DNA of 64,000 nt, taken from sequence record NC_014792.1, one strand, 5' to 3'. Origin of the DNA: Escherichia phage vB_EcoM_VR7. A model generated the notes under the pieces. It was not told the origin of the DNA. It saw only the letters and a program-made list of their open reading frames with translations, and ran no database searches. Below, piece after piece: positions 1,136 through 51,558 of this stretch. Numbering within the stretch: position 1 is the first letter of the stretch; each line of letters begins with the position of its first letter. Made by a program: the position numbers and the translations under genes.

Positions 1136-1561
1136 TTATTTTTGAGCTTTGCGGAAGTTAGAAGCATAAGACTGAACAACAGTCTTTTTGATATCATGGG
1201 TAGTAACCAGGACATCAATCAGAGCGCGGCGAGCTGCATTATCATTCATATCAATTTCTGCAAATGCCTGGAAGCAAATGTCACGGGCGTTACCAGATTT
1301 GGACTGGATTTTTTCTTCTTTAACTTCTTCAATTGGGAATTCAATCATTTCAGCTTGGATTAATTCAATGATGGATTCTTTTGACTGTTTGGTGTTTACC
1401 TTCAGTTCAGAATTAAGGGACTTAGCGATGGCAACAATCTGGGTTGAAGTCAGATGGATAAGTGCATCTTCACGAATGCAGATTTCACATACTTCGTCAG
1501 CAACCATTTTGTTAGTGATGCGGGTAACAGAAAATGCAGAGGTCAGGGTCAGAAAGTTCAT
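1136..1561 (-). CDS. Hypothetical early protein (142 aa)
   Basis: ORF track 1136..1642 trimmed to the ATG at 1561 (GGAG RBS); the longer N-terminus would run through the promoter cassette at 1613-1642. Confidence 0.5.
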   Translation of the reverse strand: MNFLTLTSAFSVTRITNKMVADEVCEICIREDALIHLTSTQIVAIAKSLNSELKVNTKQSKESIIELIQAEMIEFPIEEVKEEKIQSKSGNARDICFQAFAEIDMNDNAARRALIDVLVTTHDIKKTVVQSYASNFRKAQK

Positions 1562-1612
1562 TTTATTTCTCCAAAGTTTTGTTTGATTCAGTGTGTAACT
1601 CAGTATGGAATC

Positions 1613-1996: not shown

Positions 1997-2551
1997 TTAC
2001 CGGTAGCGACCCGGTTTCTTGTTTGGTATTTCAAATTGCGTAGATTTAGTATCTAATTTTTTAACTATGGAACTTATGTCATGAAAGAAAAACCATTCAC
2101 CATTTATATGGTCCTGATTATAAATGGTGTGCATATATTTTTCAAGTTCTACTGCATCCTGGGAATATCTAAATGATACTATTTTAAAACTTTTAAAAGG
2201 TGAAAATGTATTTGCTGCTATAGCTCTAACATCGGGTTCTATACTTCTTCCTATTTTATAATAATTAGGATTTGTAGTGTCTACCATTATGTATACAAAA
2301 GCTTGTCGATAACTTTTTTCTATATCGAATTCATCTTTAAATTTCAATAGATTTAGAGCAGCCGTTCTACAAAATATTCCCCATATCGACGAGCGTTTAG
2401 CTTCGGTCATCGAAAAGAATTTTTTCTTATCTATGATTTTAAGAAAAGCCACCTTTTCAATTAGTTCTTGTGTTATTTCAAAATTACCATGGTATATTAA
2501 TCCAGCTTTTATAGCCAAATTAATTTGGTCCCAGTCTACATCACTTCTCAT
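1997..2551 (-). CDS. T5orf172 / GIY-YIG-superfamily domain protein (184 aa) in the tRNA island; possible homing-endonuclease-like nuclease
   Basis: C-terminal half carries FVYIMV...NYYKIGRS...R...E...NGEWFFF, resembling the GIY-YIG/T5orf172 signature; occupies the position where T4 has segB in its tRNA cluster. Confidence 0.5.
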   Translation of the reverse strand: MRSDVDWDQINLAIKAGLIYHGNFEITQELIEKVAFLKIIDKKKFFSMTEAKRSSIWGIFCRTAALNLLKFKDEFDIEKSYRQAFVYIMVDTTNPNYYKIGRSIEPDVRAIAANTFSPFKSFKIVSFRYSQDAVELEKYMHTIYNQDHINGEWFFFHDISSIVKKLDTKSTQFEIPNKKPGRYR

Positions 2552-47882: not shown

Positions 47883-47900
47883 AATGAACCTCGGTTATTG

Positions 47901-47908
47901 TATAAATA
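47901..47908 (+). promoter_or_regulatory. T4 late promoter TATAAATA (uvsW)
   Basis: Exact motif 29 nt upstream of the uvsW ATG. Confidence 0.6.
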
Positions 47909-47936
47909 TAGATATATTTATTACCTTGGAATCATC

Positions 47937-49436
47937 ATGGATATCAAAATCAACTTTTTAAATTTTAGTCATGTACATGTTGAATGTGAAGATAGTATCT
48001 TCTATGAACTCCGTGACTATTTCAGTTTTGAAGCCGAAAACTATCGGTTTAACCCTAAATTCAAAGCGGGAGTTTGGGACGGACGTATCCGTCTCCTGGA
48101 TTATAACCGTAAATTACCATACGGCTTAGTTAACCAGATTAAAAAATTCGCTGACCAGTTTGGTTATTCATTTTGGATTGACCCTCAAATCACCGAGAAA
48201 GAGGAAATCTCTCGTGCGGATTTCGATAAATGGGTCGAGTCAAAAGAAATCTATTCAGGCCATACCAAGATTACTCCCCATTGGTACCAAACAGACGCCG
48301 TATACGACGGTCTGGTCAACAGAAGAAAGATATTGAACTTACCTACGTCTGCAGGTAAAAGCCTCATCCAGGCGCTTCTGGCGCGATATTATCTCGAGAA
48401 CTATGAAGGCAAGGTTCTTATCCTTGTACCTACAACCGCGCTTGTTGACCAGATGATTAACGATTTCGTCGATTACAGATTGTTCCCTCGAGAAGCTTGT
48501 CTCGGTATCCGTTCCGGAACTAAACGTGATTCAGATGCAATGATTTATGTGTCTACTTATCAGACGGCAGTAAAACAACCTAAAGAATGGTTTTCACAGT
48601 TCGGTCAGTTTATGAATGATGAATGCCATATGGCTACTGGTAAATCCATTTCGACTGTTATCGAAGGCCTGACTAATTGTATGTTTAAATTTGGTCTCTC
48701 TGGTTCTCTCCGTGACGGCAAAGCAAACCTTATGCAATATATGGGTCTGTTTGGTGATATCTTTAAACCAGTATCCACATCCCAATTAATGGATGAAGGC
48801 CAAGTTACTGACCTTAAGATAAATAGTATTTTCCTTCGTTACCCTGATGAATTCACCGTTAAAATGAAAGGCAAATCTTATCAAGATGAAATCAAGGTAA
48901 TTACAAAAGCTACACGTAGAAATAAATGGGTAACAAACCTCGCACTCAAGCTTGCTAAAAAAGATGAAAACGTCTTTTTGATGTTTAAGAATATCGAGCA
49001 TGGTAAATCGATGTTTGAAATGCTTAAGGAAGCAGGTCATGAGAACGTGTATTATGTTTCTGGGGAAGTTGATACAGAAACACGTAACGCATTAAAGGTC
49101 ATGGCAGAGAATGGAAAGGGAATTATCGTTGTAGCTTCATATGGTGTATTCTCGACGGGGATTTCCGTTAAAAACCTCCATCATATTATTTTCGCTCACC
49201 CGGTCAAGTCAAAGGTAATTGTACTCCAGACAATTGGTCGTGTACTTCGAAAACATGAATCCAAATCGCAAGCAAACGTTTTTGATATCGTGGATGATAT
49301 GGGTGTTAAACCTAAATCGGCAAATGCTAAAAAGAAATATGTTCATTTGAACTTCGCCCTAAAACATGGCCTTGAACGTATACAACGATATGCTGATGAA
49401 CGTTTTAACTATGTAATTAAACAGGTGGAAATATAA
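47937..49436 (+). CDS. uvsW: UvsW DNA/RNA helicase (SF2)
   Basis: ORF track 47898.. trimmed to MDIKINF; Walker A LPTSAGKS, DECH box; about 500 aa. Confidence 0.9.
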   Translation: MDIKINFLNFSHVHVECEDSIFYELRDYFSFEAENYRFNPKFKAGVWDGRIRLLDYNRKLPYGLVNQIKKFADQFGYSFWIDPQITEKEEISRADFDKWVESKEIYSGHTKITPHWYQTDAVYDGLVNRRKILNLPTSAGKSLIQALLARYYLENYEGKVLILVPTTALVDQMINDFVDYRLFPREACLGIRSGTKRDSDAMIYVSTYQTAVKQPKEWFSQFGQFMNDECHMATGKSISTVIEGLTNCMFKFGLSGSLRDGKANLMQYMGLFGDIFKPVSTSQLMDEGQVTDLKINSIFLRYPDEFTVKMKGKSYQDEIKVITKATRRNKWVTNLALKLAKKDENVFLMFKNIEHGKSMFEMLKEAGHENVYYVSGEVDTETRNALKVMAENGKGIIVVASYGVFSTGISVKNLHHIIFAHPVKSKVIVLQTIGRVLRKHESKSQANVFDIVDDMGVKPKSANAKKKYVHLNFALKHGLERIQRYADERFNYVIKQVEI

Positions 49437-49663
49437 TGAAGTCATTTGAAGAAATTATGTATGAAGCGGCAATTGAAAGCTTCATGTCTAAGATAGGTTC
49501 TTGTCAGACCATGGACGGTCTGAAGGAGCTGGAAGGTTATTATAAAAAGCGCAGCAAAGAAGCTGAATTGAAAGATTCCGATGATATCAGTGTTCGCGAT
49601 GCTCTAGCAGGTAAACGTGCCGAGCTTGAGGATATGGACGACGAAGAAGACGAAGATTTCTAA
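49436..49663 (+). CDS. uvsW.1: UvsW.1-like small acidic protein
   Basis: 75 aa directly after uvsW with overlapping stop/start; acidic C-terminus. Confidence 0.65.
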   Translation: MKSFEEIMYEAAIESFMSKIGSCQTMDGLKELEGYYKKRSKEAELKDSDDISVRDALAGKRAELEDMDDEEDEDF

Positions 49664-49665
49664 AT

Positions 49666-49694
49666 AAAAAGGCCCCAACCAAAAAGGAAGGGGC
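49666..49694 (-). terminator. Putative terminator (minus strand)
   Basis: GCCCC / GGGGC stem with a T-run on the minus strand. Confidence 0.4.
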
Positions 49695-49720
49695 AAAACC
49701 AAAATGGTTAACAACACTAG

Positions 49721-49888
49721 CTAAATTAAAAGTTGGGTCTCGTTCAGTTGCTCTTGAGTATTTTCCGTAACTGGCAAACTCTGAACATAATTATAACAGG
49801 CGCCCGGATGCACCGGACCTTGGTCTGTATCCACAACCAATGCAGAATCGATTGGAGTTTTACAGACAACACAAATCTTATCTGACAT
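49721..49888 (-). CDS. Hypothetical small protein (55 aa, Cys-containing)
   Basis: Not in the ORF track (below cutoff); ATG at 49888 with strong GAGGAG RBS; MSDKICVVCKTPID... Confidence 0.4.
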   Translation of the reverse strand: MSDKICVVCKTPIDSALVVDTDQGPVHPGACYNYVQSLPVTENTQEQLNETQLLI

Positions 49889-49917
49889 GATTGTCTCCTC
49901 AGTTAAACTTACATATC

Positions 49918-50022
49918 TATTTAGTGCTTCTTTAATGCGGCATTAATAAACTGTTGAAATTCACGCATCTTCTCTTCAGAAGGTTTTAATGGTTTTCTAA
50001 TATTTGCTTTACGACAACCCAT
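49918..50022 (-). CDS. Hypothetical very small basic protein (34 aa) translationally coupled to uvsY
   Basis: ATG overlaps the uvsY stop (TGATG); MGCRKANIRKPLKPSEEK... Confidence 0.3.
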
Positions 50023-50456
50023 CATTTACCTGCCTCAAATTGTCTTATTTCTAACATATGTTTAAGTGCGAAACTTCGTGACTTAACACCATCTAATGCA
50101 GCGCTACAGAAGTCCTGGAGCAGTGCCCAATATTGAATTGAAGTATCAATCTTAAGCACGCTTGAATCTGCAGCCATGACTGTTTTCAATTCTGACTTCT
50201 CGTACACATCCATGCATACTTCTTCCCCTGGGTCACCCCTTCCTGTATAATGGTCTAGTCGTTTTTTCAGTGCAGTCTTCTTCTGAATCTCAAGACGCAT
50301 TATTTCTTTCTTGCAGTTAGTATACAATCTCAACCATTTGCTATGCAACAAAACGTTGTTTTGTGTTTCATATTGAATTTGTGTACCATCAATTTTTAAA
50401 TCTGCATCCAACTCATCCTGAAATACTTCCAACTTATATTCAATCTCTGTTTTCAT
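50022..50456 (-). CDS. uvsY: UvsY recombination mediator protein
   Basis: ORF track 50022..50486 trimmed to the ATG at 50456 because the extension lies in the promoter; LHSKWLRL...EIMRLEIQKK...DFCSAALD...FEAGK collinear with remembered T4 UvsY. Confidence 0.9.
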   Translation of the reverse strand: MKTEIEYKLEVFQDELDADLKIDGTQIQYETQNNVLLHSKWLRLYTNCKKEIMRLEIQKKTALKKRLDHYTGRGDPGEEVCMDVYEKSELKTVMAADSSVLKIDTSIQYWALLQDFCSAALDGVKSRSFALKHMLEIRQFEAGK

Positions 50457-50484
50457 AATGTATCCAATGTAAGGGTCTAGAACC

Positions 50485-50510
50485 ATTATACAGCCATAAA
50501 ATTAAAGCAT
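50485..50510 (-). promoter_or_regulatory. T4 middle-type promoter (MotA box ATGCTTTA + 12 nt + TATAAT) for uvsY
   Basis: Minus strand TGCTTTA-N12-TATAAT within the ggtctagaaccattata element. Confidence 0.5.
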
Positions 50511-50899
50511 TAACCGTTTTGACTTAACTGAATCCTGATTTGTTCGAGGGTGTCAGGGTCATCAACAATGCTGAACTGAACCGTTACGATGATGGAGTTA
50601 TCATCATACATAGGGACAACCGCAACCTGTAGATTGCTTATCCTTGGTTCGAAGTTCCGCACCGCGGAGACGATGTTGCGTTTAATAGTATCTGTGATTA
50701 ATGGAGTGATATTCTCAAAAAGCTGATTACTTATATCACATCCAAATTCAGGCATAAAAGGCCTTGACCCTTTTCTTGTGGTGATTATTCCCAGAAGACT
50801 GTTCTTAACAGACCTTGCACCAGTTACTTTAGCAACGTCTTTATCCCAACTCATTGACAAGTCGGGAGGCACATCGCTATACATTTTGTTTATATTCAT
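50510..50899 (-). CDS. 25: gp25 baseplate wedge protein
   Basis: 129 aa; NSLLGIITTRKGSRPF..PEFGCD matches remembered T4 gp25. Confidence 0.92.
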   Translation of the reverse strand: MNINKMYSDVPPDLSMSWDKDVAKVTGARSVKNSLLGIITTRKGSRPFMPEFGCDISNQLFENITPLITDTIKRNIVSAVRNFEPRISNLQVAVVPMYDDNSIIVTVQFSIVDDPDTLEQIRIQLSQNG

Positions 50900-51546: not shown

Positions 51547-51558
51547 TATTTATAAATA
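51547..51558. promoter_or_regulatory. Overlapping divergent T4 late promoters (TATTTATAAATA): minus for 26-25, plus for 51-27
   Basis: Plus tataaata 51551-51558; minus TATAAATA 51554..51547. Confidence 0.6.

What the first reader, a model, noticed from the sequence alone, without database searches (positions are those of the whole stretch)
49721..50022. Two unannotated short ORFs upstream of uvsY, one translationally coupled to it
Seen in sequence: a 55-aa ORF (49721-49888) has a strong GAGGAG RBS and several Cys residues (CVVC...C); a 34-aa basic ORF (49918-50022) starts at an ATG overlapping the uvsY stop. Both fall below the ORF-track size cutoff. Established knowledge: T4 has small uvsY.-1/uvsY.-2 genes at this position. 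Inference: these are the counterparts.
Basis: partly seen in the sequence, partly recalled or inferred. Interest (0 to 1): 0.25.

Follow-up and report, generated by a model that had tools for sequence, protein, structure and literature searches.

The report
Two small genes after phage uvsY
Two short genes following the recombination gene uvsY in a T4-like phage are real: one is the known, widely conserved zinc-finger mini-protein UvsY.-2, and the other is a little-known 34-residue basic peptide that replaces T4's uvsY.-1 rather than matching it, so the finding is largely ordinary.

Summary
The window is a VR25-like Gaprivervirus, a T4-like coliphage. Both ORFs exist, but on the minus strand and downstream of uvsY, not upstream.

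**55-aa ORF (49721-49888).** This is the ortholog of T4 uvsY.-2.
- It matches Pfam DUF2685 at E 9e-29 and is 80% identical to the T4 protein.
- It is found in 1241 phage records and is annotated in close relatives.
- It has an invariant C-x2-C...H-x3-C motif, a zinc-finger-like model, and a conserved acidic tail ending E-x-Q-L-L-hydrophobic.
- A published knock-down shows that T4 needs uvsY.-2 for full fitness. Its function is unknown.

Its ATG overlaps the uvsY stop codon (ATGA). It is not uvsY.-1.
- The 74-77-aa uvsY.-1 is missing from this phage, and profile comparison shows no similarity (P 0.89).
- It belongs to a separate small family with the motif Q-x-FINAAL, a weak match to phrog_25483. 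Members occur in Dhakavirus, Kanagawavirus and a few Gaprivervirus phages, always start-overlapped with uvsY.
- It is under purifying selection (pS 0.76 against pN 0.23).
- The slot it occupies is hypervariable among T4-like phages.

A resemblance to the BRC repeats of Trichomonas BRCA2 is most likely chance.

Verdict: real genes, interpretation half right, low novelty.

The parts
49721..49888 (-). uvsY.-2 ortholog, 55 aa (DUF2685): C-x2-C...H-x3-C zinc-finger-like core plus an acidic tail ending EQLNETQLLI
   Evidence: ORF listed. Pfam PF10886 99.9 bits, E 9e-29; phrog_1043. 80% identical to T4-type uvsY.-2; 1241 phage records. Invariant C6, C9, K10, G29, C31, E42, and H27 in >90% of 67 sequences. 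AF2 model pLDDT 78.8.
49895..49900 (-). Shine-Dalgarno GAGGAG of uvsY.-2, 6 nt before its ATG
   Evidence: Read. Identical in VR25, VR26 and SP18; AAGGAG or GAGGAG in the Dhakavirus and Kanagawavirus loci and T4.
49918..49925 (-). ACTAAATA: a 6/8 match to the T4 late-promoter box TATAAATA, overlapping the stop codon of the 34-aa ORF
   Evidence: T4 has an exact TATAAATA at the equivalent place, overlapping the uvsY.-1 stop 26 nt before uvsY.-2. JS98 and CIP9 have AATAAATA. Whether the window's version works is not shown.
49921..50025 (-). 34-aa basic small ORF of the Q-x-FINAAL family (weak match to phrog_25483); occupies the variable slot in place of uvsY.-1
   Evidence: ORF. phrog_25483 E 1e-4; the JS98-type member hits the same PHROG at E 1.3e-25. 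13 distinct family sequences. pS 0.76 vs pN 0.23 against CIP9. AF2: residues 1-16 disordered, helix 17-32.
50022..50025 (-). ATGA overlap of the uvsY stop (TGA) and the start (ATG) of the 34-aa ORF
   Evidence: Every family member starts 0 to 4 nt into or directly after the uvsY stop.
50033..50036 (-). GAGG, 7 nt before the ATG of the 34-aa ORF, inside the uvsY codons for F-E-A-G-K
   Evidence: Read. Present in the Gaprivervirus members and several Dhakavirus members, but GAAG in the Kanagawavirus members and some Dhakavirus members. It is also constrained by UvsY coding.
50022..50456 (-). uvsY (recombination mediator). The ORF extends to an ATG at 50486, but that ATG lies inside the promoter -10 box
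   Evidence: Pfam PF11056 E 8e-50. VR25 annotates the 435-nt version.
50485..50512 (-). T4 middle-promoter-like site: MotA box TAATGCTTTA, 12-nt spacer, TATAAT
   Evidence: Pattern TGCTTYA-N10-14-TANNNT gives 7 sites in the window against 2.3 expected; one is at 50485-50509. T4 annotates oriF/PuvsY at the equivalent place. Function is inferred.
49662..49694 (-). Intrinsic-terminator-like hairpin (GCCCC..CC / GG..GGGGC) followed by CUUUUUAUUU, ending the uvsY / 34-aa / uvsY.-2 transcription unit
   Evidence: RNA fold -17.7 kcal/mol, z -2.2. The simple terminator scan missed it because of the internal mismatch.

Best explanation
The stretch is the 3' part of the uvsY transcription unit of a VR25-like Gaprivervirus, read on the minus strand. 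The order is middle-type promoter, uvsY, 34-aa ORF, uvsY.-2, hairpin terminator.

Shown here:
1. Both small ORFs are genuine protein-coding genes under purifying selection.
2. The 55-aa gene is the ortholog of T4 uvsY.-2 (DUF2685).
3. The 34-aa gene is not uvsY.-1. It belongs to a separate narrow family (K-P-S-x-E-R-M-x-x-F/L-Q-x-F-I-N-A-A-L) that sits in a hypervariable slot between uvsY and uvsY.-2. In every member the start codon overlaps or abuts the uvsY stop codon.

Inferred:
- The 34-aa peptide is made by termination-reinitiation coupling to uvsY, helped by a GAGG 7 nt upstream. uvsY.-2 uses its own strong GAGGAG.
- UvsY.-2 binds one zinc ion through C6, C9, H27 and C31 in a treble-clef-like knuckle-hairpin-helix module. 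It uses its flexible acidic tail, ending E-x-Q-L-L-hydrophobic, to dock on a partner protein, as other small zinc-finger binders such as YacG do.
- The 34-aa peptide (disordered basic arm 1-16, amphipathic helix 17-32 with invariant F26 and I27) acts as a small docking or modulator peptide.

The partner of the 34-aa peptide is open. My estimates are about 45% for a host or defence-related target (an accessory gene in a plastic slot), about 35% for a phage recombination or replication protein (UvsX, UvsY, gp32 or the acidic UvsY.-2), and the rest for something else.
For: Identity of the phage and gene order: 98.7% DNA identity to VR25 with the same neighbours.

uvsY.-2:
- Pfam and PHROG hits; 1241 phage records; 94 database clusters.
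- Invariant CCHC positions and a tail conserved out to Vibrio, Aeromonas and Acinetobacter phages.
- AF2 model with pLDDT 81-89 over residues 1-40, a hairpin at 19-26 and a helix at 30-37.
- The structural neighbours are almost all small zinc modules, and all are weak matches: LIM half-fingers, eL24, GATA, C1, YacG, CsfB.
- T4 uvsY.-2 knock-down lowers fitness and is complemented (PMC11879866).

34-aa ORF:
- Homologs at 48-63% identity in Kanagawavirus and Dhakavirus at the same place.
- Against the window sequence, changes concentrate at third codon positions and omega is about 0.1-0.2 where dS can be estimated; omega is also about 0.1-0.2 among JS98-type members.
- Synonymous variation occurs inside the FINAAL codons.
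- The start overlaps the uvsY stop in all members even though the relative reading frame differs between them.
- Helix prediction.

Transcription unit: MotA-box promoter pattern and terminator hairpin.
Against: - There are no expression data for this phage.
- The 34-aa family is narrow: 13 distinct sequences, with nothing new in IMG/VR or metagenome scans.
- Between family subtypes omega rises to 0.6-1.0 in the N-terminal half.
- The slot is empty in about a third of the T4-like loci sampled, and T4 uvsY.-1 knock-down has no phenotype. Whatever sits in the slot is therefore dispensable, and position says little about function.
Confidence: 0.85

Rival explanations
1. The 34-aa ORF is the homolog (counterpart by descent) of T4 uvsY.-1, shortened.
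For: Same position immediately after uvsY, with start/stop overlap as for uvsY.-1 in T4.
Against: There is no sequence similarity (hhalign P 0.89). The two fall in different PHROGs, 25483 against 1541. The charges are opposite, pI 10.3 against 5.0. VR26 and SP18 carry the full uvsY.-1 followed by a different small ORF in the same slot, so the window lacks uvsY.-1 altogether.
Confidence: 0.02
2. The 34-aa ORF is not translated. It is a chance ORF in a spacer whose conservation reflects DNA or RNA signals for uvsY.-2, such as a late-promoter box, a ribosome-binding region or a palindrome.
For: The 3' end of the ORF overlaps a late-promoter-like box (AATAAATA in JS98 and CIP9, exact TATAAATA in T4). 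A 15-nt palindrome lies in the INAAL codons. In Yersinia phage MHG19 the equivalent stretch contains TATAAATA. ORFs of this length are common by chance.
Against: Synonymous sites are saturated while the amino-acid sequence is kept (pS 0.76, pN 0.23, p 8e-5). Variation within the motif is at third positions. The frame stays open and the ATG is retained at the uvsY stop in three genera. The palindrome is not conserved outside VR25-like phages.
Confidence: 0.05
3. The 34-aa peptide is a BRC-repeat-like module. Like the BRCA2 repeats that bind RAD51, it would bind the phage RecA/RAD51-family recombinase UvsX and tune filament assembly, being made together with the mediator UvsY.
For: The only non-phage hit among 1.84 billion proteins is Trichomonas vaginalis BRCA2, matched over 11 BRC repeats (E 4.5e-25 summed). 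About 15 of 30 residues are identical to the repeat at residue 502, by my own alignment of the sequences. The family profile against the Trichomonas repeats gives hhalign 88.6%, P 2.6e-6, reached by 0 of 300 column shuffles. Against 218 BRC repeats drawn from the other BRCA2 homologs (66 proteins searched) the helical half still aligns (score 17.2, P 2.4e-4, 0 of 200 shuffles). The predicted shape, a disordered arm plus a helix, is BRC-like. The gene is coupled to uvsY.
Against: The best single repeat scores only 15.6 bits, E about 1500 in that library, so the significance comes from summing non-independent repeats. The Pfam BRCA2-repeat model hits none of the 13 family members at E <= 10. A general BRC HMM does not single the ORF out among 1704 segments of the window. 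No BRC4 chain appears in a PDB profile search. The FxxA module, which from my own knowledge is essential for RAD51 binding, is not conserved (CRKA, CRKV, YRKP, or absent). The comparison with the wider BRC set is not independent of the original selection. The PSEE-plus-amphipathic-helix pattern is generic.
Confidence: 0.04
4. The 34-aa gene is an accessory gene unrelated to recombination, for example host take-over or anti-defence. It merely lodges in a recombination-prone plastic slot, and the overlap with uvsY reflects genome compaction.
For: Slot content differs even among near-identical Gaprivervirus genomes whose UvsY is 99-100% identical. The slot is empty in 13 of 35 sampled loci. T4 uvsY.-1 is dispensable. 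From my own knowledge of T4, small genes lying among replication genes, such as dmd in the gene 61 cluster, have anti-defence roles.
Against: The family is always found at this one position, coupled to uvsY, in three genera. In MHG19 the equivalent ORF is in frame with uvsY.-2. No PADLOC or defence link was tested.
Confidence: 0.4

Closest known systems
T4 uvsY.-2 (NP_049797; Pfam PF10886 DUF2685; phrog_1043)
   Same: Same length (55 aa) and 80% identity. Same C-x2-C...H-x3-C positions and EQLNETQLL tail. Same position between uvsY and uvsW.1/uvsW, and the same GAGGAGACAATCATG ribosome-binding region.
   Different: T4 has an exact late promoter TATAAATA just upstream; the window has ACTAAATA. 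The upstream neighbour is a 34-aa ORF here and uvsY.-1 in T4.
phrog_25483 / JS98-type 32-aa ORF and its CIP9- and PSD2002-type relatives (34-35 aa 'hypothetical proteins' after uvsY)
   Same: Same slot, start overlapping the uvsY stop, basic N-terminal part, and C-terminal motif M-x-x-F/L-Q-x-F-I-N-A-A-L.
   Different: Only 45-67% identical. The window type has an extra Met and the N-terminus G-C-R-K-A-N, and ends KKH instead of NK. The PHROG HMM hit is weak (E 1e-4). The ORF is not annotated in VR25.
T4 uvsY.-1 (NP_049798; phrog_1541)
   Same: Position directly after uvsY, with the start overlapping the uvsY stop.
   Different: 74-77 aa, acidic, no sequence similarity. It is absent from this phage.
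BRC repeat of BRCA2 (Pfam PF00634)
   Same: About 30 residues, with a K-x-x-x-P-S-E-E-x-M/L-R-x-x-Q-x-hydrophobic-hydrophobic-N pattern and a predicted helix in the second half. Encoded next to a recombination mediator.
   Different: No conserved FxxA. The Pfam model does not match. The resemblance is strong only to the Trichomonas repeats. It is a single copy in a phage whose recombinase is RecA-like.
Small single-zinc protein binders: LIM half-finger (C-x2-C-x16-23-H-x2-C), YacG (gyrase inhibitor), CsfB/Gin (anti-sigma)
   Same: Knuckle-hairpin-helix arrangement with four Cys/His ligands. Very small size. A tail available for docking (YacG).

Membership tests
UvsY.-2 / DUF2685 (PF10886) | Match to the family HMM above the curated cutoff over the full length | tested here: met
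   99.9 bits against a cutoff of 25, residues 3-54 on profile positions 1-54 of 55. phrog_1043 E 4.4e-29.
UvsY.-2 / DUF2685 (PF10886) | Conserved C-x2-C-K ... G-x-x-H-x-G-x-C positions | tested here: met
   C6, C9, K10, G29 and C31 are invariant, and H27 and G24 are in >90% of 67 sequences. All are present in the window protein.
UvsY.-2 / DUF2685 (PF10886) | Acidic C-terminal tail ending E-x-Q/E-L/M-L/I-hydrophobic | tested here: met
   EQLNETQLLI in the window. The tail is kept in Vibrio, Aeromonas, Acinetobacter, Krischvirus and Nanhuvirus homologs.
UvsY.-2 / DUF2685 (PF10886) | Location in the uvsY-uvsW neighbourhood of a T4-like (Straboviridae) genome | tested here: met
   Lies between uvsY and uvsW.1/uvsW. 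uvsY was found upstream on the same strand in 35 of 37 IMG/VR loci, within 1 kb in 34 of them.
UvsY.-2 / DUF2685 (PF10886) | Zinc binding and biological role | not testable with these tools
   Only the motif and the AF2 model are available. The fitness role is known for T4 only (PMC11879866).
UvsY.-1 (phrog_1541), for the 34-aa ORF | Sequence similarity to the 74-77-aa UvsY.-1 proteins | tested here: not met
   hhalign P 0.89. The PHROG scan of the 34-aa ORF does not list phrog_1541. In the alignment with VR26 and SP18 the window has gaps across the uvsY.-1 segment.
UvsY.-1 (phrog_1541), for the 34-aa ORF | Position directly after uvsY with start/stop overlap | tested here: met
   ATGA overlap at 50022-50025. 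T4 uvsY.-1 starts on the last base of uvsY.
FINAAL small-ORF family (phrog_25483 and relatives), for the 34-aa ORF | HMM or sequence match to family members | tested here: met
   phrog_25483 E 1e-4. tblastn 60-63% identity over the full length to CIP9 and Kosakonia phage 305, E 6e-5 to 5e-4. P0022 at E 5e-5 in 1.84 billion proteins.
FINAAL small-ORF family (phrog_25483 and relatives), for the 34-aa ORF | C-terminal motif Q-x-F-I-N-A-A-L with invariant F and I | tested here: met
   Alignment A3: R5, K14, F26 and I27 are invariant; Q24, A30 and L31 are in >90%.
FINAAL small-ORF family (phrog_25483 and relatives), for the 34-aa ORF | Start codon overlapping or abutting the uvsY stop, with uvsY.-2 following | tested here: met
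   All 13 members.
BRC repeat (PF00634), for the 34-aa ORF | Match to the curated BRC repeat model | tested here: not met
   No PF00634 hit for any of the 13 members at E <= 10. A general BRC HMM built here does not rank the ORF among the top hits of the window.
BRC repeat (PF00634), for the 34-aa ORF | Conserved F-x-x-A (F-x-T-A-S-G-K) module | tested here: not met
   The window has C-R-K-A-N-I-R-K. Other members have CRKV or YRKP, or lack the segment. hhalign against the broad BRC set aligns only residues 11-28.
BRC repeat (PF00634), for the 34-aa ORF | Second, helical module (S-x-x-x-L-x-K-x-x-x-L-F-D/N) | tested here: inconclusive
   hhalign score 17.2, probability 44%, P 2.4e-4, reached by 0 of 200 shuffles. 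The test is not independent of how the hit was found, and the pattern is a generic capped amphipathic helix.
BRC repeat (PF00634), for the 34-aa ORF | Binding to a RecA/RAD51-family recombinase | not testable with these tools
   I did not look for uvsX in the window; by T4 gene order (my own knowledge) it should lie outside it.
Treble-clef / LIM-type single zinc finger, for UvsY.-2 | Knuckle (C-x2-C), beta-hairpin, then a helix whose N-terminus supplies the last two ligands | tested here: inconclusive

The most novel reading that the evidence does not exclude
The 34-aa peptide is a phage-encoded, single-copy BRC-repeat-like module. It would be co-translated with the mediator UvsY and use its capped amphipathic helix (M20, F23, F26, I27) to dock on the RecA/RAD51-family recombinase UvsX, tuning presynaptic filament assembly. 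That would be a viral analogue, or a convergent mimic, of the BRCA2-RAD51 interaction.
Probability: 0.04. Interest if true: 0.75.

Novelty: new member of a known kind. Interest (0 to 1): 0.2.

Why it matters
The practical value is in annotation. The 55-aa gene should be named uvsY.-2 (DUF2685). The 34-aa gene should be called as a conserved small ORF distinct from uvsY.-1; it is missed in VR25 and JS98.

Two points go a little further:
1. UvsY.-2 is one of the few T4 genes of unknown function with a demonstrated fitness effect (PMC11879866). The invariant CCHC positions and the conserved C-terminal tail described here give concrete mutants to test.
2. The slot between uvsY and uvsY.-2 is a compact example of cassette-like turnover of small genes. 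It exists in at least five states among T4-like phages, and in three states among near-identical Gaprivervirus genomes.

The resemblance to BRC repeats would be interesting if real, but the evidence points to chance.

Tried and rejected
- **Word-indexed protein search with the 34-aa ORF:** The exhaustive HMMER search was used instead.
- **Pfam, PDB profile search and Rfam on the 34-aa ORF or its DNA:** nothing meaningful. The only Rfam hit is AniS at 24.7 bits against a gathering score of 50. It lies on the terminator hairpin and is taken as chance.
- **IMG/VR and metagenome scans for more family members:** no new sequences.
- **BRC-repeat lead:** followed through per-domain scoring, shuffles, a broad BRC profile and a window-wide control. 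Judged most likely chance, inflated by repeat summation.
- **Programmed frameshift fusing the peptide to UvsY:** rejected. Family members overlap the uvsY stop in different relative frames (ATGA, TAATG, or TAA directly followed by ATG), so only independent initiation is common to all.
- **FINAAL conservation as a DNA signal (palindrome TTAATGCGGCATTAA or a late-promoter relic):** rejected. The palindrome is broken in other members, and the variation is synonymous.
- **phrog_26998 (126 aa with DUF2685 at its C-terminus) as a uvsY.-1/uvsY.-2 fusion:** T4 UvsY.-1 does not hit that PHROG. The longer database entries (P0006, P0014, P0034, P0040, P0052, P0070) look like upstream start calls, fragments or chimeric calls. 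In MHG19 the small ORF runs in frame into uvsY.-2 and contains a TATAAATA box, so the 93-aa product is probably an annotation artefact, although a real fusion is not excluded.
- **Similarity of the 34-aa family to the alternative 36-38-aa slot ORF of VR20 and VR26:** none (P 0.1).
- **The + strand ORF 49733-49885, antisense to uvsY.-2:** treated as a shadow of the conserved gene.
Full report
**What is in the sequence.** The region 47.9-52.3 kb carries, on the plus strand, uvsW (47898-49436) and uvsW.1 (49436-49663). On the minus strand it carries gp26, gp25 (50510-50899), uvsY (50022-50486 as an ORF; Pfam UvsY E 8e-50), a 34-aa ORF (49921-50025) and a 55-aa ORF (49721-49888). The two ORFs of the finding therefore exist.
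- GAGGAG lies 6 nt before the ATG of the 55-aa ORF.
- The ATG of the 34-aa ORF overlaps the uvsY stop as ATGA, with a GAGG 7 nt upstream.
- The DNA is 98.7% identical to Escherichia phage vB_EcoM_VR25 (Gaprivervirus, Tevenvirinae).

**The 55-aa ORF is uvsY.-2.** It matches Pfam DUF2685 (PF10886) at 99.9 bits, E 9e-29, and phrog_1043 at E 4e-29.
- It is 80% identical to the T4-type protein and has relatives in 1241 phage records: Escherichia, Klebsiella, Acinetobacter, Vibrio, Aeromonas and others.
- T4 annotates uvsY.-2 (55 aa) and uvsY.-1 (74 aa) at this position, and VR25 annotates this very gene as UvsY.-2.
- In 67 diverse family members, C6, C9, K10, G29, C31 and E42 are invariant, and H27 and G24 are present in more than 90%. 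This gives C-x2-C-x17-H-x3-C.
- The acidic C-terminus ending E-x-Q/E-L/M-L/I-hydrophobic is kept out to Vibrio, Aeromonas, Acinetobacter, Krischvirus and Nanhuvirus phages.
- An AlphaFold2 model (mean pLDDT 78.8; 81-89 over residues 1-40, 58-69 in the tail) shows a hairpin at 19-26 and a helix at 30-37 that begins at the H27/C31 ligands.
- I read UvsY.-2 as a treble-clef-like single zinc finger with a flexible docking tail. That is inference from the motif and the model.
- The only functional data I found are for T4. In a CRISPRi-ART screen uvsY.-2 was 'Semi-Fit', and the defect was complemented. uvsY.-1 and uvsY itself were 'Not Fit' (PMC11879866). UvsY.-2 therefore matters, and not only through UvsY.

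**The 34-aa ORF is not uvsY.-1.** Alignment with VR26 and SP18 shows that those phages carry a 77-aa uvsY.-1 (MRYSIDDAFN...) after uvsY. In that alignment the window, VR25 and TH15 have gaps across this roughly 235-nt segment. Profile comparison of the 34-aa family with UvsY.-1 finds nothing (P 0.89), and the two fall in different PHROGs.

The 34-aa ORF does have full-length relatives, at 60-63% identity in Kanagawavirus (CIP9, Entb_45, IME523, Kosakonia phage 305) and 48-60% in Dhakavirus (PSD2002, JS98, Bp7 and others). All of them lie directly after uvsY. Some are annotated as hypothetical proteins, and some are unannotated, such as those in JS98, Bp7 and VR25. Thirteen distinct sequences align with invariant R5, K14, F26 and I27 and near-invariant Q24, A30 and L31. 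The consensus is M..RK....KP.KPS.ERM.KLQEFINAAL..NK. The JS98 type defines phrog_25483 (E 1.3e-25); the window type hits it weakly (E 1e-4).

**Is the 34-aa ORF coding?** Against the CIP9 homolog, synonymous sites are saturated (pS 0.76) while pN is 0.23. There are 17 third-position changes against 8 and 8 at the first two positions; Fisher p is 8e-5.
- Among JS98-type sequences omega is about 0.1-0.2.
- Between subtypes the N-terminal half evolves faster, with omega 0.6-1.0.
- Inside the FINAAL codons the only nucleotide variation is synonymous, apart from one A-to-T change.
- The ATG sits 0 to 4 nt into or directly after the uvsY stop in every member, although the relative frame differs: ATGA, TAATG, or TAA followed by ATG. 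This argues for independent initiation coupled to uvsY termination and against a frameshift fusion.
- AlphaFold2 predicts a disordered basic arm (residues 1-16) and a confident helix (17-32). The peptide has pI 10.3 and net charge +5.6.
- I conclude it is a real small gene. Translation and coupling remain inferred.

**The slot is hypervariable.** In the 35 IMG/VR loci where both uvsY and uvsY.-2 were located, the spacer between them takes several forms:
- Empty (13-33 nt) in 13 loci.
- uvsY.-1 in 11 loci, sometimes followed by another 26-36-aa ORF.
- A FINAAL-family ORF in 7 loci.
- A 38-aa ORF (MMKQNISKILDEM...) in VR20.
- Other unrelated contents: Cronus, 79 and 84 aa; a 1.8-kb insertion; a 707-nt gap.

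Among Gaprivervirus genomes whose UvsY is 99-100% identical, three states occur. The replaced segment is exactly the small ORF, bounded by the uvsY 3' end and the conserved junction CACTAAATAGATATGTAAG. The two alternative basic peptides are unrelated (P 0.1). This cassette-like turnover, together with the dispensability of T4 uvsY.-1, means that position is weak evidence for a recombination role.

**Transcription context.**
- A MotA-box middle-promoter pattern (TAATGCTTTA, 12 nt, TATAAT) lies at 50485-50512 (-). This is where T4 annotates PuvsY/oriF. Its -10 box covers the ATG at 50486, so uvsY probably starts at 50456, as VR25 annotates.
- After uvsY.-2 there is a hairpin followed by a U-run at 49662-49694 (-).
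- T4 has an exact late box TATAAATA overlapping the uvsY.-1 stop, 26 nt before uvsY.-2. JS98 and CIP9 have AATAAATA, and the window has ACTAAATA overlapping the stop of the 34-aa ORF. A dedicated late promoter for uvsY.-2 may therefore be weak or lost here.

**The BRC-repeat lead.** An exhaustive HMMER search of 1.84 billion proteins with the 34-aa ORF returned two phage relatives and one other protein, P0020 (E 4.5e-25 over 11 stretches). P0020 is Trichomonas vaginalis BRCA2: Pfam BRCA2 repeat E 2e-43, plus the OB1 and helical domains. The matched stretches are its BRC repeats, for example FIGFSTANGKKPIVPSEESLRRAQQIMNAAE against MGCRKANIRKPLKPSEEKMREFQQFINAAL. Because the ORF is coupled to the mediator of a RecA/RAD51-family recombinase, I tested this further.

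In favour:
- The family profile against the Trichomonas repeats gives hhalign 88.6%, P 2.6e-6, reached by none of 300 column shuffles.
- Against 218 BRC repeats drawn from the other BRCA2 homologs (66 proteins searched), the helical half (residues 11-28) still aligns, with score 17.2, P 2.4e-4, and 0 of 200 shuffles reaching it.

Against:
- The best single repeat scores 15.6 bits, E about 1500 in that library, so the headline E-value comes from summing non-independent repeats.
- The Pfam BRCA2 model hits no family member at E <= 10.
- A PDB profile search finds no BRC peptide.
- A general BRC HMM does not single the ORF out among 1704 stop-to-stop segments of the window; only the Trichomonas-specific HMM does.
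- The FxxA module is not conserved in the family.
- The shared pattern, a P-S-E-E cap followed by an amphipathic helix, is generic.

I rate this about 4% likely. No paper in the library links FxxA-type (BRC) motifs to phage proteins.

**Other leads.**
- In Yersinia phage MHG19 the equivalent small ORF runs in frame into uvsY.-2, annotated as a 93-aa protein, and keeps the P-S-x9-F-I-N spacing. It also contains a TATAAATA box, so the fusion is probably an annotation artefact.
- The end of UvsY.-2 (SESSEEQLNETQLLL in T4) is of the same Ser-rich, acidic, Leu-rich type as the end of gp32 (SSADDTDLDDLLNDL). That is only a hint about what the tail might bind.

**Verdict.**
- Shown here: gene identity, family membership, purifying selection, slot variability and the overlap architecture.
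- Inferred: translation by coupling, zinc binding, tail or helix docking, and any partner.

Novelty is low. The 55-aa gene is a known conserved gene of unknown function, and the 34-aa gene is a new member of an already catalogued small-ORF family that annotators often miss.

Noticed in passing
window 50485-50512 (-): MotA-box middle-promoter pattern (TAATGCTTTA, 12 nt, TATAAT) just upstream of uvsY, where T4 has PuvsY/oriF. Its -10 box covers the ATG at 50486, so uvsY most likely starts at 50456.
   Followed up: partly
window 51547-51558 (both strands): Two overlapping exact late-promoter boxes TATAAATA facing opposite ways, between gp26 (-) and gp51 (+). The window holds 21 exact boxes against 4.4 expected by chance.
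   Followed up: no
window 49918-49925 (-); L004 (T4) about 2186-2193 (-): T4 has an exact TATAAATA overlapping the uvsY.-1 stop, 26 nt before uvsY.-2. The window has ACTAAATA at the same junction, overlapping the stop of the 34-aa ORF. JS98 and CIP9 have AATAAATA.
   Followed up: partly
window 49932-49946: A perfect 15-nt palindrome TTAATGCGGCATTAA inside the INAAL codons of the 34-aa ORF. It is not kept in the Dhakavirus or Kanagawavirus homologs, so it is probably incidental.
   Followed up: yes
L003 (VR26) 985-1125, L002 (SP18) 2182-2322, L010 (VR20) 2356-2472: A different 36-38-aa basic ORF (M(M)K(Q)NISKILDEMVISANRIT.IVNE.KA.A..MKSTK) fills the same slot in other Gaprivervirus genomes, with or without uvsY.-1 before it. 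This gives three slot states among phages whose UvsY is 99-100% identical.
   Followed up: partly
L002 (SP18) 1130-1729: SP18 carries an extra 600-nt ORF between uvsW and uvsW.1; TH40 gives the same three-piece match and probably has it too. RefSeq calls it a homing endonuclease. It is absent from the window.
   Followed up: no
L055 (Yersinia phage MHG19) 1501-1782: The small ORF after uvsY runs in frame into uvsY.-2 and is annotated as one 93-aa protein. It keeps the P-S-x9-F-I-N spacing of the FINAAL family and contains a TATAAATA box.
   Followed up: partly
P0020 (Trichomonas vaginalis BRCA2), residues 181-717: Fourteen BRC repeats of this protein resemble the 34-aa phage peptide (up to about 15 of 30 identities). 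It is the only non-phage hit in 1.84 billion proteins, but each repeat alone is far from significant.
   Followed up: yes
window 49663-49743 (-): Sub-threshold Rfam hit to the AniS sRNA (24.7 bits against a gathering score of 50, E 0.12), lying on the terminator hairpin after uvsY.-2. Taken as chance.
   Followed up: no
L056 (T4 gene 32) 1449-1598 (-): The gp32 C-terminus (SSADDTDLDDLLNDL) and the UvsY.-2 C-terminus (SESSEEQLNETQLLL) are the same type of Ser-rich, acidic, Leu-rich tail.
   Followed up: no
L050 (Acinetobacter phage Apostate), L053 (Cronobacter phage LPCS28): In distant Straboviridae uvsY.-2 is not directly after uvsY. In Apostate no uvsY lies between gp25 and uvsY.-2. In LPCS28 uvsY.-2 lies upstream of uvsY, near a Dda-like helicase. 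It still sits among DNA-metabolism genes.
   Followed up: no
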